This document shows, piece by piece, positions 8,286 to 12,734 of a stretch of DNA of 20,000 bases. The DNA is from an uncultured virus (IMG/VR IMGVR_UViG_3300033463_000102) (Duplodnaviria > Heunggongvirae > Uroviricota > Caudoviricetes): the IMG/VR virus record IMGVR_UViG_3300033463_000102. The stretch is one strand, 5' to 3'. The translations under genes were made by a program, and so were the position numbers. Below the pieces are notes generated by a model. The model worked only from the letters and a program-made list of their open reading frames with translations. It searched no databases and was not told the DNA's origin. How positions within the stretch are numbered: the first letter of the stretch is position 1; the number at the start of each line of letters is the position of its first letter.

Positions 8286-8333
8286 CCTTGATGAGTTAGC
8301 TTGACTTTTTAGAGTAACAACCCGCATGGGCCT

Positions 8334-8361
8334 AGTTTATCCTTTTTTTCCTTCCATGCAA
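8334..8361 (-). promoter_or_regulatory. Sigma70-like promoter
   Basis: TTGCAT-16 nt-TAAACT; same -10 hexamer as the promoter at 9477-9505. Confidence 0.5.
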
Positions 8362-8464
8362 GTTGTTGACCCTAGTGGACAGATGGGTGAAACTGATAGC
8401 ACACATTTGTTGAAGAAAACCCCATCTGCCCGCTAGGGCCCAGCCCGAAGGCTGAACCCACAAC
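8362..8464 (-). ncRNA. Candidate structured ncRNA of unknown family
   Basis: A C(UUCG)G-capped 10-bp hairpin (8436-8459), a ~20-bp stem (8368-8387 with 8421-8440) enclosing a 33-nt loop, and a GUUGU/ACAAC closing pair. G-U pairs favour the minus strand. Confidence 0.6.
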
Positions 8465-8530
8465 AGGTAGGTTAACATGAACAATAAGTAGCCTGTCTAT
8501 TTTAAGCCAGTCAGGCAAGTTGGCTGTTAG

Positions 8531-8659
8531 GTGTGATGGCAGGGTTCGAACCTACAACATCGGGATTACAAATCCTAAGTAACCCGCCCTGTCGCAACCA
8601 TTTCAGGAGAAAAGGCGGACGGGTAACATTCCGTGCTCTACCAGTTGAGCTACATCACA
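8531..8659 (-). tRNA. tRNA-like gene with UGU (Thr) anticodon and a 56-nt insertion in the anticodon stem
   Basis: Acceptor TGTGATG/CATCACA, D arm GCTC-AACTGGTA-GAGC, T arm GTAGG-TTCGAAC-CCTGC, anticodon loop TT-TGT-AA. Removing 8576-8631 leaves a canonical 73-nt cloverleaf with stem CGGGA/TCCCG. Confidence 0.85.
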
Positions 8660-8669
8660 CTTTTAATAA

Positions 8670-9395
8670 CTAGAACGGGAGGTCCGAGTCTTCGAAGCTA
8701 GTAGCACTCGTTGCTGCAGCCTGTTCCATCAATTGCTTCTTGGCAGTGGAGCCCTTCGGCAATGCCGGGGGAGCAGTCTTTGCCTTCTGCTGTTCTTCGG
8801 CAGGTTCGGAAGACTCTTCCTTTGCACGGATGCCGATGCCATCAGCCAACTTATAGTCAAGGGCTTCTGAAAGCATCCATTCAGGAATATCGTCGATACC
8901 GACTTCCTTTGCAGTCTTTGAAGCAGGAGAGATGCTTACGATGTCATTGAAGGTCTTTCCTTTCTTGGAAGTGACCTGATTGACCATAAGGCGACCCTTC
9001 TTGCCGATGAACTTGCTGACATCGAAATGGGCACCGTTTTCGTCAGTGACGAGAAGTCCGCCCTTTTTCAGGATATCAACGATGGTCGGCCAATCCGTCT
9101 TGTTGAACCACTTGGAAATTTCCTTGCGGAACACCGAGCGTTCATCAGCACAAATCTTCCAGCGCTTGCCGAGAAGACTATGCACGAGGCCTTCGCTGTC
9201 TGCGAGCTGCCAAATGAGCTGGATTTTCGGGCCATGGTCATCGCCTTCGAACACATGGGGCTTGATGACATAGCCACGGACGACTGCATCATAGACTCCT
9301 TCTTCGAGCAGGAACTTGGATGTGGTTTCCCCGCTTTCGAATGCTGCGAGTTCTTCTTCATTGAGGTCTAGTCCGAGATTGATTTCGTTACTCAT
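8670..9395 (-). CDS. Single-stranded DNA-binding protein-like (phage SSB)
   Basis: ATG at 9395 with an AGGAG RBS. Beta-rich core starting EEGVYDAVV, a flexible tail and an acidic C-terminus ending EDSDLPF. Adjacent to primase and helicase. Confidence 0.75.
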   Translation of the reverse strand: MSNEINLGLDLNEEELAAFESGETTSKFLLEEGVYDAVVRGYVIKPHVFEGDDHGPKIQLIWQLADSEGLVHSLLGKRWKICADERSVFRKEISKWFNKTDWPTIVDILKKGGLLVTDENGAHFDVSKFIGKKGRLMVNQVTSKKGKTFNDIVSISPASKTAKEVGIDDIPEWMLSEALDYKLADGIGIRAKEESSEPAEEQQKAKTAPPALPKGSTAKKQLMEQAAATSATSFEDSDLPF

Positions 9396-9476
9396 ATTAT
9401 TACTCCTATTGAGATTGTTAGCACCAGCACGGTGGATTTCTGTGACGGGACGTGCCCCTTTCAAGTCTGTACCTAT

Positions 9477-12341: not shown

Positions 12342-12734
12342 ATGAACAATAAGGAAAACACATCCATCACAGAACTCCCTTTCCAGACTGGTCTCAAGAA
12401 GTTCCTGAACCGCAAGGGTCTCACCCAGAAAGCACTGGCCGACAAGATTTACGTCTCGTCATGCACGGTATCACAGTGGACTCGTGGCAGCTATGACCCT
12501 AGCGTGACAGTCTCCCTGCTCATTCTGGAAGGCATGACGCTCGAAGAAATCTTCGGTGCGGACGTGATGGACAAGATTCTTGAAAACGAGAAGGAAAGCA
12601 CCAACGCAATCCTTCGCCACATCAACGCACAGTCCTCGCCCAAGAAGGAAGAACCCAAGAAGGAAACGAGGGCCGAGAAACAGAAAGCTGGCTTCATGAG
12701 CCGTCTGACCATGCTGTTCAGCGCAAAGAGGTAA
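12342..12734 (+). CDS. XRE-family helix-turn-helix regulator
   Basis: KGLTQKALADKIYVSSCTVSQWTRG..DP pattern. GAGGT RBS. Confidence 0.9.
   Translation: MNNKENTSITELPFQTGLKKFLNRKGLTQKALADKIYVSSCTVSQWTRGSYDPSVTVSLLILEGMTLEEIFGADVMDKILENEKESTNAILRHINAQSSPKKEEPKKETRAEKQKAGFMSRLTMLFSAKR

What the first reader, a model, noticed from the sequence alone, without database searches (positions are those of the whole stretch)
8531..8660. tRNA(UGU)-like RNA with a 56-nt structured extra arm inserted into the anticodon stem
Seen: all tRNA landmarks are intact, namely U8, A14, G18G19, the TTCGAAC T-loop, U33, A37 and a compensatory A15:U48 Levitt pair, which argues against decay. However, 56 nt (8576-8631, or shifted by one) sit at tRNA position 28/29 or 29/30. 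The insert folds on itself: GUUACCCGUCC/GGGCGGGUUAC (11 positions, one U-U) encloses a GCC-U-UUUC/GAAA-U-GGU hairpin and a 7-nt bulge. The acceptor end lacks the bacterial Thr identity pairs (U1-A72 and G2-C71 instead of G1-C72 and C2-G71), can form a His-like G-1:C73 extra pair, and ends CCTA with no encoded CCA. Known: bacterial tRNA introns are group I elements of about 200 nt or more in the anticodon loop, while short introns at such positions are archaeal and need a bulge-helix-bulge, which I could not build here. Inference: this is either a new type of short phage tRNA intron or, more likely, an unspliced tRNA-scaffolded regulatory/decoy RNA (e.g. a decoy for anticodon nucleases or a carrier for a functional hairpin).
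Basis: partly seen in the sequence, partly recalled or inferred. Interest (0 to 1): 0.9.

Follow-up and report, generated by a model that had tools for sequence, protein, structure and literature searches.

The report
Y RNA module inside phage tRNA
The 56-base insert in this phage tRNA-Thr gene is most likely not an intron but the Ro60-binding stem of a bacterial-type Y RNA grafted onto a complete tRNA, a new arrangement of a known family of tRNA-mimicking RNAs.

Summary
On the minus strand, 8531-8659 is a full tRNA-Thr(UGU) body (Rfam tRNA 42.7 bits). A 56-nt structured insert (8576-8631) lies between positions 28 and 29 of the anticodon stem.

It is not a misassembly or decay:
- Three independent contigs are identical.
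- Nine diverged variants carry an insert at the same site.
- Its helices covary.
- A relative's insert-bearing RNA stands in metatranscriptome contigs and ends exactly at the discriminator base.

The insert ends in GUUACUU and holds an invariant (U/G)GCGA(N)AG. This resembles GNCGAAN0-1G, the proposed Ro60-recognition motif of YrlA Y RNAs (Chen 2014).

The same module recurs in at least 118 distinct viral sequences. Of 98 such records, 80 encode a Ro60 (TROVE) protein; in the 38 whose distance I measured it lies within 4 kb. Of 20 loci in YrlA order, 18 give sub-threshold Rfam YrlA hits.

The window's RNA is therefore a tRNA-ordered, anticodon-bearing relative of YrlA, in a phage with no Ro60 gene. 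No splicing machinery or known intron signature was found. I rate it a new variant of a known kind; Ro60 binding, charging and splicing remain untested.

The parts
8531..8659 (-). Whole RNA: tRNA-Thr(UGU)-shaped body with an internal Y-RNA-like stem-loop (129 nt, position 1 to discriminator C73)
   Evidence: Rfam tRNA 42.7 bits. The cloverleaf is recovered by RNAalifold on 9 variants. ARAGORN calls Thr(UGU) once 8576-8631 is removed.
8632..8659 (-). tRNA positions 1-28: acceptor 5' strand, D arm, and the first two anticodon-stem nucleotides (C27, G28)
   Evidence: Sequence. Acceptor pairs covary in 6 of 7 positions and the D stem is invariant.
8576..8631 (-). 56-nt insert, read here as a Y-RNA-type (Ro60-binding-type) module closed by a hairpin
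   Evidence: Present at 28/29 in 9 variants, 53-89 nt long. Covariance model R1 finds diverged members L139, L141, L173, L251 and L155. Homologous strands form the 5'/3' stem of YrlA-like RNAs.
8617..8627 (-). Outer stem P1, 5' arm (GUUACCCGUCC)
   Evidence: Pairs with 8579-8589. 8 of 10 P1 pairs change on both sides across 16 sequences. cmscan aligned this arm to the 3' half of the YrlA model with high posterior probability.
8598..8607 (-). Inner hairpin P2 (CC ... GG closing U-GAAA-U), the place where relatives carry 4-36 extra nt
   Evidence: The CC/GG pairs are invariant in the 9 seed sequences and covary in the wider set. In YrlA-order relatives the RNA ends lie here instead of a loop.
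8589..8596 (-). Conserved bulge motif UGCGACAG, family consensus (U/G)GCGA(N)AG, the candidate Ro60/Rsr contact
   Evidence: G, C, G, A, A and G are invariant in 9 of 9. It resembles GNCGAAN0-1G of YrlA, which Chen 2014 relate to the Ro60-contacted GGUCCGA (passages read). It lies on the strand that runs into the variable loop and T arm, as in YrlA.
8577..8589 (-). P1 3' arm and the hallmark GUUACUU at the 3' end of the module
   Evidence: (G/C/U)UACUU is kept in all 9 variants. A pattern anchored on GUUACUU found at least 121 viral loci.
8563..8575 (-). Lower anticodon stem and 7-nt loop UUUGUAA (anticodon UGU at 8568-8570)
   Evidence: Sequence. The three lower stem pairs covary. Orthologues carry GAU or GGU instead.
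8531..8562 (-). tRNA positions 42-73: anticodon-stem 3' end, variable loop, T arm, acceptor 3' strand, discriminator C
   Evidence: In run X23, RNA contig record 6 (a relative, 4 other letters over 51 bases) abuts what I recognise from memory as an Illumina adapter directly at 8531.
8491..8525 (-). Conserved H-type pseudoknot just 3' of the RNA (stems 8521-8525/8505-8509 and 8512-8516/8491-8495). Function unknown; it may or may not belong to the same unit.
   Evidence: 100% of cells paired in 5 distinct sequences, 7 of 10 pairs changed on both sides, 0 of 500 shuffles as good. No Rfam family at E up to 10.
8670..9464 (-). Upstream 264-aa ORF ending ...SFEDSDLPF. Context gene of the window's subfamily.
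   Evidence: Translation. No Pfam or PHROG family. Relatives at 73-84% identity are followed by the same kind of RNA. That the tail resembles the SSB tip is my recollection, not a test.

Best explanation
The locus encodes one stable RNA of about 129 nt. It is a complete tRNA-shaped body (acceptor, D, anticodon and T arms) with an extra stem-loop leaving the anticodon stem between positions 28 and 29. That stem-loop is homologous to the Ro60/Rsr-binding stem of bacterial and phage Y RNAs of the YrlA type.

Shown:
- the structure is conserved and covaries;
- the module recurs in many phages, nearly always beside a Ro60 (TROVE) gene;
- an RNA that includes the insert exists in vivo for a relative and ends at the discriminator.

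Inferred:
- the RNA is cut out of the operon transcript by the tRNA end-processing enzymes (RNase P at the 5' end, a 3' tRNase);
- the insert is kept, not spliced;
- the bulge motif UGCGACAG and its helix bind a Ro60/Rsr ring, here the host's, because this phage encodes none;
- the tRNA body serves as the effector or tether domain, as proposed for YrlA (for example bringing Rsr to PNPase or another tRNA-binding factor), so the phage can redirect or block the host's Ro60 RNA-surveillance machinery.

In topology it is YrlA turned back into tRNA order. The ends are in the acceptor stem, the Ro60 stem is closed by a loop, and a genuine anticodon arm is present.
For: 1. Family and structure.
- 9 diverged variants carry the insert at 28/29.
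- Covariance model R1 finds diverged members at E 5e-09 to 2e-03.
- In the 16-sequence alignment 89% of cells pair, 13 of 15 pairs change on both sides, and 0 of 500 shuffles do as well.

2. Motif.
- (U/G)GCGA(N)AG is invariant in 9 of 9, against GNCGAAN0-1G of YrlA (Chen 2014, PMC4201824, passages).

3. Direct link to YrlA.
- cmscan aligned the window's D arm plus the insert's 5' arm to YrlA model positions about 62-111 with high posteriors, although the total was only 18 bits because the other half is permuted away.
- In L499 and L502 the same strands form the terminal stem of RNAs that match YrlA over the whole model (48.4 and 50.7 bits, E about 1e-09).
- 18 of 20 YrlA-order loci hit YrlA at E up to 0.001.

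4. Ro60 linkage.
- A TROVE gene is present in 38 of 49 and 42 of 49 viral records holding the module, 80 of 98 in all, and in 35 of 38 records at least 90% complete.
- In the first batch it lies within 1.5 kb in 32 of 38 and within 4 kb in 38 of 38.
- Of 12 tested loci in tRNA order like the window, 8 have TROVE.
- A different insert class at the same site has TROVE in 0 of 5 records.

5. Expression.
- In metatranscriptome run X23 a 151-nt contig at depth 46.2 (neighbouring contigs 14.4, 33.1 and 40.7) consists of 23 adapter letters, then 8531-8581, then 77 more letters.
- The shown 30 letters of that run-on, read on the RNA strand, hold the family motifs UUUCUCC and GGUUGCG.
- No contig of that run covers the trailer 8478-8530.

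6. No splicing apparatus.
- RtcB, RNA ligase, splicing endonuclease and NYN were each found in 0 of 5 phage records.
- No Rfam ribozyme or intron hit.
Against: - The window's phage (G001, 100% complete) and relative G003 (100% complete) have no TROVE gene, nor do 3 partial relatives: 0 of 5. A host Rsr must be assumed, and the host is unknown.
- The window's own motif departs from GNCGAAN0-1G at two positions (U for the first G, C for the sixth A).
- An ungapped weight matrix trained on 70 YrlA-order loci puts the window's own 22-mer only in the top 1.8% of window 22-mers (701 of 39,956 score as high). 4 of 9 subfamily members pass the 99.9th percentile.
- Rfam YrlA scores only 18 bits on the window, and 31-53 bits on the permuted relatives, all below the gathering score of 69. 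Chen 2014 warn that tandem tRNAs can mimic YrlA.
- The perfectly kept anticodon arm, with anticodons that change between Thr and Ile among orthologues, is what a decoding tRNA would show. Published YrlA lacks an anticodon loop.
- RNA libraries can contain DNA, and contigs cannot show a rare spliced form.
- No binding, charging or processing experiment exists.
Confidence: 0.6

Rival explanations
1. It is a true tRNA intron of a new, small, structured class. The insert is cut out and the halves are ligated by host enzymes, giving a working tRNA-Thr(UGU). The resemblance to Y RNA stems reflects shared ancestry or a second use.
For: - Removing the insert gives a clean tRNA in 13 of 13 members.
- The anticodon-stem pairs on both sides of the insert covary.
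- The anticodon loops are canonical.
- Insert length varies from 53 to 89 nt at one fixed site.
- Phage tRNA 'introns' of unknown mechanism are on record (Devoto 2019, PMC6784885, passages).
- Wang 2018 speculate that some YrlA RNAs could be processed to look more like tRNAs.
Against: - No bulge-helix-bulge can be built at 28/29 (inspection).
- 56 nt is far below group I or II size, and no intron or ribozyme family matches.
- No endonuclease or ligase was found in 5 phage records.
- No insert-less allele was found.
- No joint was seen in RNA contigs.
- The homologous module in YrlA-order RNAs cannot be an intron, because there it holds the RNA's ends.
- The conserved bulge motif and the Ro60 gene linkage point to a retained, protein-binding element.
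Confidence: 0.15
2. It is a tRNA-shaped decoy or sponge that works without Ro60. The intact anticodon loop baits a host tRNA-cleaving defence nuclease, and the extra arm keeps the decoy off the ribosome.
For: - Orthologues with near-identical acceptor stems switch anticodon between UGU, GGU and GAU (L016 against L110, window against L100), as if tracking a target rather than a codon.
- This phage has no Ro60 gene.
- The acceptor lacks the Thr identity pairs (sequence; the identity rules are recalled).
- Phage tRNAs are known to counter tRNA-targeting defences (titles and abstracts of PMC10264068 and PMC11464382 seen in the listing).
Against: - Nothing here links the RNA to a nuclease.
- The conserved motif and the 80-of-98 Ro60 linkage of the same module argue that its function is Ro60-related.
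- The apparent bias to NNU anticodons is largely explained by my search pattern: 71 of 110 uninterrupted controls against 14 of 15 interrupted, Fisher p 0.036.
Confidence: 0.1
3. It is a DNA-level feature, a small palindromic mobile element or decay product that has disabled a phage tRNA gene.
For: - The insert has inverted-repeat arms.
- KVP40's comparable genes were annotated as pseudo-tRNAs.
Against: - G-U pairs and compensatory changes keep an RNA helix.
- The exons stay intact across relatives whose neighbouring protein is only 73-84% identical.
- There is no second copy of the insert in the phage (G001 gives one match).
- None was found in 185,579 species' genomes with the subfamily pattern: 35 pattern matches, 0 with tRNA flanks.
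- An RNA with a defined end is present.
Confidence: 0.03

Closest known systems
YrlA (Y RNA-like A; Rfam RF02553) of Salmonella Typhimurium, Mycobacterium smegmatis and 22 phages (Chen et al. 2014, PMC4201824; Wang et al. 2018, bioRxiv 10.1101/312249)
   Same: Two modules: a tRNA-like domain with D arm, T arm, acceptor stem and Levitt pair, and a stem leaving the anticodon-stem position that carries a GNCGA-type motif on the strand leading to the variable loop and T arm. Relatives of the window's module sit beside Ro60 genes, as YrlA does. M. smegmatis YrlA is even opened by RNase P and receives CCA, giving tRNA-like ends.
   Different: YrlA has its 5'/3' ends in the Ro60 stem, a closed acceptor stem, no free CCA end and no anticodon loop. 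The window's RNA has tRNA-order ends, a closed Ro60-type stem and a full anticodon arm. It scores 18 bits, far below the family's gathering score of 69. Its phage has no Ro60 gene.
Phage Ro60 with Y RNA-like RNAs, e.g. Thermus phage phiLo Yrl1/Yrl2 (PMC12135203)
   Same: Phage-encoded Y RNA-like RNAs with a conserved CGAA-type bulge motif next to a phage Ro60. They are reported to form a Ro60-Y RNA-host PNPase complex (passages).
   Different: Those RNAs are plain stem-bulge-stem Y RNAs found next to the phage's own Ro60. No tRNA body or anticodon arm is described in the passages I read.
Deinococcus radiodurans Yrn1
   Same: A Y RNA with tRNA-like features. According to Chen 2014 it can be drawn with a possible 5-bp 'anticodon arm'.
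   Different: That loop has 6 nt, no variable arm and no clear D arm. The order of arms differs, and Chen 2014 regard it as independently evolved.
'Enigmatic' introns in tRNA genes of Lak megaphages (Devoto et al. 2019, PMC6784885)
   Same: Phage tRNA genes interrupted by conserved inserts with no known bacterial splicing route, including a tRNA-Thr(TGT).
   Different: Different phages (about 540 kb, Prevotella). The inserts are reported as introns found with eukaryotic tRNAscan settings, and one may itself encode a tRNA. No Y RNA link is made. I read passages only, not Supplementary Table 6, so shared motifs cannot be excluded.
KVP40 'tRNA-Pseudo-3' and its homologues in 50 Vibrio phage records
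   Same: A tRNA (Asn GUU) with a 38-41-nt structured insert at exactly 28/29, conserved in cultured phages.
   Different: A different insert class: A-rich 5' strand, hairpin with a UGAYAA loop, CNGCA(A) motif, and no GUUACUU. TROVE was found in 0 of 5 records. Its function is unexplained.
Circularly permuted tRNA genes of red algae and an archaeon (as cited by Wang 2018)
   Same: They show that tRNA-order and permuted-order versions of one fold can interconvert in evolution.
   Different: Those are precursors processed to normal tRNAs by bulge-helix-bulge endonuclease and ligase. No such machinery or motif is present here.

Membership tests
YrlA / bacterial Y RNA (Rfam RF02553) | Conserved GNCGAAN0-1G motif near the 5' strand of the Ro60-binding stem | tested here: inconclusive
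   The family consensus here is (U/G)GCGA(N)AG, with G, C, G, A, A, G invariant in 9 of 9. The window reads UGCGACAG, two departures. L008, L016 and L052 read GGCGA(U/C)AG, one departure. The motif is in the right place and strand orientation.
YrlA / bacterial Y RNA (Rfam RF02553) | tRNA-like domain (D arm, T arm, acceptor stem, 15:48 Levitt pair) | tested here: met
   Rfam tRNA 42.7 bits. A15:U48 is read from the sequence.
YrlA / bacterial Y RNA (Rfam RF02553) | Reaches the curated Rfam gathering score (69 bits) | tested here: not met
   18 bits, E 0.43, on the window. Permuted relatives score 31.3-52.7 bits. The circularly permuted window sequence could not be scanned with these tools.
YrlA / bacterial Y RNA (Rfam RF02553) | RNA ends in the Ro60 stem, acceptor stem closed by a loop, no anticodon loop | tested here: not met
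   The window RNA has an open acceptor stem, a closed module and a 7-nt anticodon loop. Published description.
YrlA / bacterial Y RNA (Rfam RF02553) | Encoded within about 4 kb of a Ro60 (TROVE) gene | tested here: not met
   No TROVE in G001 or G003 (both complete) or in 3 partial relatives. It is met for the wider module family: 80 of 98 records, and 38 of 38 measured within 4 kb.
YrlA / bacterial Y RNA (Rfam RF02553) | Bound by Rsr/Ro60 in vivo | not testable with these tools
   Needs co-immunoprecipitation or gel shift.
Canonical elongator tRNA-Thr | Continuous cloverleaf of 73-76 nt detected by tRNA finders | tested here: not met
   ARAGORN finds 0 genes in the window. It calls Thr(UGU) only after 56 nt are removed in a script.
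Canonical elongator tRNA-Thr | Bacterial Thr identity pairs G1-C72 and C2-G71 (recalled rule), and a CCA end | tested here: not met
   U1-A72, G2-C71, C73, and no encoded CCA. The RNA contig of a relative shows no CCA before the adapter.
Archaeal/eukaryal-type tRNA intron | Bulge-helix-bulge motif at the exon-intron junctions, and a splicing endonuclease | tested here: not met
   With cuts at 28/29 the central 4-bp helix would have to use D-stem nucleotides 23-26. Only 3 of 4 pairs form, and no flanking helix (inspection). tRNA_int_endo was found in 0 of 5 phage records.
Bacterial group I tRNA intron | Catalytic core of about 200 nt or more, in the anticodon loop | tested here: not met
   The insert is 56 nt and lies in the stem. 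No Intron_gpI or other ribozyme appears among the 4 Rfam matches at E up to 10.
Theta / HDV-like ribozyme 3' of phage tRNAs (PMC10879173), considered for the downstream pseudoknot | Nested double pseudoknot with P3/L3 and a catalytic C in J4/2, cleaving at the tRNA 3' end | tested here: not met
   Only 2 nt lie between the second and third strands, so there is no room for P3. The A-rich linker has no C. No Rfam HDV-type hit.

The most novel reading that the evidence does not exclude
These tRNA-ordered RNAs may be the missing link between tRNAs and YrlA Y RNAs: a real tRNA that acquired a Ro60-binding stem in its anticodon stem, from which the permuted YrlA form arose through tandem arrays (arrays of 3 to 5 or more modules exist). 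In Ro60-less phages such as this one, the RNA could be an orphan Y RNA that is still processed, and perhaps charged, like a tRNA. It would then let the phage couple the host's Ro60/Rsr ring to tRNA-handling machinery such as the ribosome, synthetases, RtcB repair or anticodon nucleases.
Probability: 0.2. Interest if true: 0.8.

Novelty: new variant of a known kind. Interest (0 to 1): 0.62.

Why it matters
Y RNAs and Ro60 are conserved from bacteria to humans. What the tRNA-like half of bacterial Y RNAs does, and where it came from, are open questions.

The published form (YrlA) lacks an anticodon loop and free ends. Here the same module sits on a complete tRNA in tRNA order, with a varying and canonical anticodon, and in phages that lack Ro60. 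This has three consequences:
- It gives a natural series (tRNA order, permuted order, tandem arrays) for testing how YrlA evolved.
- It suggests that phages deploy Y RNAs against, or through, the host's Ro60.
- It warns annotators that long 'pseudo-tRNAs' or 'tRNA introns' in phage genomes may be functional chimeric RNAs that both tRNA finders and Rfam thresholds miss.

Tried and rejected
- **Known ribozymes or riboswitches in the insert.** Rfam at E up to 10 on 8350-8850 and on 12 family loci gave only tRNA, weak YrlA and noise.
- **ARAGORN intron mode.** It forces an implausible tRNA-Leu(UAG) with a 50-nt loop intron and G-U-rich stem. Rejected in favour of 28/29, which gives 5 clean stem pairs in all members.
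- **Bulge-helix-bulge, K-turn, hammerhead, hairpin-ribozyme and HDV-like readings.** Tried by hand; none fits.
- **Phage-encoded processing enzymes.** NYN, RtcB, tRNA_int_endo and RNA_ligase were each found in 0 of 5 records. A weak partial NYN hit in G001 outside the window is not shared by the other phages tested.
- **Bias to ANN-reading tRNAs (t6A37).** Mostly an artefact of my D-arm pattern.
- **Insert-less allele.** 0 matches, exact-match pattern only.
- **Prophage or host copies.** 35 pattern matches in species genomes, none with tRNA flanks.
- **Cultured relatives of the window's class.** blastn found only exon-sized matches.
- **T4 species 1/2 RNAs.** No Rfam tRNA match and no shared module by eye.
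- **Alternative YrlA-like 'helix 1' pairing of the motif with UC(C)GCC.** Possible in the window but not kept in diverged members, by eye.
- **Spliced form in RNA runs.** No joints, but these are contigs, which cannot show rare forms.
- **Uncovered stretches in RNA runs X22-X24.** No conclusions are drawn from them beyond the one hint named above.
- **Literature searches** for short bacterial or phage tRNA introns or tRNA-ordered Y RNAs found no description of this arrangement. Two papers could not be opened.
Full report
**What is there**

The feature is on the minus strand. Rfam's tRNA model matches 8531-8659 at 42.7 bits (gathering 29, E 3.2e-06). It skips 67 nt where the model expects 11. 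ARAGORN in default mode finds nothing in the window.

Read by hand, the RNA has:
- a 7-bp acceptor stem (U1-A72, G2-C71);
- U8, a GCUC/GAGC D stem, A14 and G18G19;
- the loop UUUGUAA (UGU), the variable loop AUGUU and the T loop UUCGAAC;
- discriminator C and no encoded CCA.

Between G28 and G29 lie 56 nt (8576-8631). The minimum-free-energy fold agrees, but is only modestly better than shuffles (z -2.23, 4 of 200). Removing the 56 nt in a script makes ARAGORN call tRNA-Thr(UGU).

**It is real and conserved**

- The window belongs to a phage of about 36.5 kb, with terminase, a P22-like portal, a VapE-like helicase and a primase-like protein.
- Three viral contigs from three assemblies are identical across the locus.
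- Searching with the two neighbouring proteins gave five loci each. Two of these loci are diverged relatives (neighbour identity 73-84% and 40-75%). Both have a tRNA hit with a large gap at the same place (39.0 and 38.3 bits; 125 and 162 nt).
- A motif pattern gave 38 viral loci, of which 8 are real (5 distinct). It gave 45 metagenome loci, of which 5 are real, and 35 loci from 185,579 species' genomes, of which none is real.
- That makes 9 distinct variants, with inserts of 53-89 nt always after anticodon-stem nucleotide 28.
- Their anticodons are UGU (3), GGU (1) and GAU (5). Near-identical acceptor stems occur with different anticodons.
- RNAalifold recovers the cloverleaf plus the insert's outer stem, with 12 of 29 pairs showing compensatory changes.
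- No insert-less allele with the window's exon flanks exists in the viral collection (0 exact matches).

**Expression**

The stretch is held in full by 5 bovine-gut DNA runs and in part by 3 RNA runs. Only contigs could be laid.

In metatranscriptome run X23, a 151-nt contig at depth 46.2 carries 23 letters that I recognise from memory as the end of an Illumina adapter. These letters directly abut 8531, the discriminator. The contig then covers 8531-8581 and runs on for 77 letters. The 30 of those letters that the tool shows, read on the RNA strand, hold the family motifs UUUCUCC and GGUUGCG.

Neighbouring contigs in the same run have depths of 14.4, 33.1 and 40.7, and none covers the trailer 8478-8530. 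In run X22 another contig shows the matching 5' arm of that relative's stem.

My reading is a discrete RNA of about 128 nt that includes the insert, ends at the discriminator and has no CCA. The caveats are that RNA libraries can contain DNA, no joints were reported, and contigs cannot show a rare spliced form.

**Looking for an intron mechanism led nowhere**

- Rfam at E up to 10 gives no ribozyme or intron family, on the window or on 12 family loci.
- A bulge-helix-bulge cannot be built at 28/29.
- ARAGORN's intron mode gives only a forced, poor tRNA-Leu reading.
- NYN, RtcB, splicing endonuclease and RNA ligase were each found in 0 of 5 phage records, including complete genomes.
- Six literature searches found no description.
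- The nearest in print are the 'enigmatic' introns of Lak megaphages (passages). Theta ribozymes lie 3' of gut-phage tRNAs, not inside them (passages).

**Widening the family**

A scan for the same D arm and T arm separated by 70-100 nt returned 120 loci (capped), 64 of them distinct non-tandem cases. 18 of these give five clean anticodon-stem pairs, U33 and a purine at 37 once an insert is removed. In 14 of the 18 the cut falls after stem nucleotide 28, and these inserts are 45-66 nt.

The inserts fall into two classes:
- **Class A** is the window's. It ends in GUUACUU.
- **Class B** has an A-rich 5' strand, a hairpin with a UGAYAA loop and a CNGCA(A) motif.

A covariance model built from the 9 seed sequences (R1) finds diverged class A members: L139 (Asn GUU, 43.2 bits), L141 (Lys UUU, 32.7), L173 (Arg CCU, 30.4), L251 (25.3) and L155 (21.3). 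In the resulting 16-sequence alignment, 89.2% of cells pair, 13 of 15 pairs change on both sides, and 0 of 500 shuffles do as well. That alignment was fitted to the model.

An apparent restriction to NNU anticodons is mostly my pattern's doing: 71 of 110 uninterrupted controls against 14 of 15 interrupted, p 0.036.

**The turn**

A pattern anchored on GUUACUU, an anticodon loop and the T arm gave at least 121 viral loci (capped; 118 distinct). In several contigs the motif repeats every 71-145 nt.

Reading these loci showed RNAs in a different order. The motif-bearing strand comes first, then GUUACUU, an anticodon arm, the T arm, an acceptor stem closed by a loop, the D arm, and last the partner strand. 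This is the circularly permuted tRNA topology of YrlA, the bacterial Y RNA.

- Rfam YrlA matches them over the whole model at 48.4 and 50.7 bits (E about 1e-09), below the gathering score of 69.
- 18 of 20 further YrlA-order loci hit YrlA at E up to 0.001 (31.3-52.7 bits).
- Their terminal strands are the two halves of the class A insert.
- In hindsight, one search had already aligned the window's D arm and insert 5' arm to the 3' half of YrlA with high posterior probabilities. The total was only 18 bits because the other half lies downstream.
- By a crude D-arm test, 71 of the 118 are in YrlA order, 16 in tRNA order like the window, 8 ambiguous and 23 unclassified.

**Ro60 linkage**

- Pfam TROVE, the Ro60 domain, is present in 38 of 49 and 42 of 49 records holding the module. 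That is 80 of 98 in all, and 35 of 38 among records at least 90% complete.
- In the first batch, the gene lies within 1.5 kb of the RNA in 32 of 38 and within 4 kb in 38 of 38.
- Of 12 tested tRNA-order loci, 8 have TROVE; the four without are 12-34% complete.
- Class B phages have it in 0 of 5, including KVP40.
- The window's subfamily is the exception: 0 of 5 records, two of them complete genomes.

**What the literature says**

In each case I read passages only.

- **Chen et al. 2014**:
  - They found YrlA next to Ro60 in 254 bacteria and 22 phages.
  - They defined the motif GNCGAAN0-1G, which they relate to the GGUCCGA contacted by Xenopus Ro60.
  - They showed that M. smegmatis YrlA is cut by RNase P and receives CCA.
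- **Wang et al. [quoted passage not shown]
- **A 2025 study of Thermus phage phiLo** reports phage Ro60, Y RNA-like RNAs and host PNPase forming a complex.

The window's invariant bulge, (U/G)GCGA(N)AG, sits where YrlA's motif sits, on the strand that runs into the variable loop and T arm. It differs from the consensus at one or two positions. A simple weight matrix trained only on YrlA-order loci gives mixed support: 4 of 9 subfamily members exceed the window's 99.9th percentile, but the window's own sequence is only in the top 1.8%.

**Conclusion**

The 'insert' is best read as a retained Ro60-binding-type module. The RNA is a tRNA-ordered, anticodon-bearing variant of the YrlA family, made by a phage that must rely on a host Ro60 if it uses one at all (confidence 0.6).

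It fails several defining features of curated YrlA: topology, score, and a neighbouring Ro60 gene. I therefore file it as a new variant, not a member. A splicing route remains possible (0.15), as does a Ro60-independent decoy role (0.1).

**Left unexplained**

- the canonical anticodon arm and the switching of its anticodon between relatives;
- the missing CCA;
- the conserved pseudoknot just downstream;
- class B inserts.

This agrees with the present reading but concerns other DNA.

Noticed in passing
window 8491-8525 (-); also L008 3427-3461, L009 3377-3410: A conserved H-type pseudoknot starts 6 nt after the RNA's 3' end and ends about 12 nt before the conserved start (GUUCAUG) of a small ORF. 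All cells pair in 5 distinct sequences, and 7 of 10 pairs change on both sides. No Rfam family matches. Its topology resembles preQ1-I-type knots with an A-rich third loop, but nothing ties it to them.
   Followed up: partly
L376 3994-4109 (KVP40 'tRNA-Pseudo-3'); L375 147-256 (Vibrio phage D482); L160, L163, L197, L198, L236: A second class of structured insert (38-54 nt: A-rich 5' strand, hairpin with UGAYAA loop, CNGCA(A) motif) sits at the same 28/29 site of phage tRNAs (Asn, Thr, Arg and others). It is conserved in 50 cultured Vibrio phage records, where it is annotated as pseudo-tRNA, as the wrong tRNA, or not at all. No Ro60 gene was found in 5 records tested.
   Followed up: partly
L376 2197-2309 and 2320-2443 (KVP40 'tRNA-Pseudo-5' and 'Pseudo-4'): Two more long 'pseudo-tRNAs' (113 and 124 nt; Rfam tRNA 51.9 and 55.5 bits) carry a similar hairpin-plus-CUGCA module. 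In Pseudo-4 it seems to follow a complete AUGUUAA loop, i.e. to lie at 38/39.
   Followed up: no
L499 205-475; L500 220-650: Tandem arrays of Y-RNA-type modules (3 in L499, at least 5 in L500) lie upstream of a Ro60 gene. Some units enclose only a small loop, some only an anticodon-like hairpin, and the last a whole permuted tRNA body. Identical helices would allow alternative pairings between neighbouring units.
   Followed up: partly
L136, L158, L168, L213, L241: These are tandem phage tRNAs in which the second gene has a 12-14-nt hairpin inserted in the D loop, between GG and the 3' half of the loop.
   Followed up: no
L160, L232, L252: A class I tRNA body (5-nt variable loop) carries the anticodon GCU, which in bacteria belongs to long-armed tRNA-Ser. 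It also has a class B insert.
   Followed up: no
G001 26708-27559 (outside the window): A 283-aa ORF has a short, weak match to the NYN nuclease domain (E 4e-06 over 24 residues). It is not shared by 5 other insert-bearing phages.
   Followed up: partly
window 12342-12734 (+): This is the only clearly plus-strand gene in a minus-strand block. It encodes a CI/Cro-type helix-turn-helix repressor-like protein (PHROG 3, E 4.6e-10). No integrase was found among the ORFs scanned.
   Followed up: no
run X22 record 1 (window 8306-8581 and beyond): A second relative in an RNA run continues past 8581 with a different insert 3' end that lacks the exact GUUACUU and GCGA motifs. The family is therefore wider than my patterns.
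   Followed up: no
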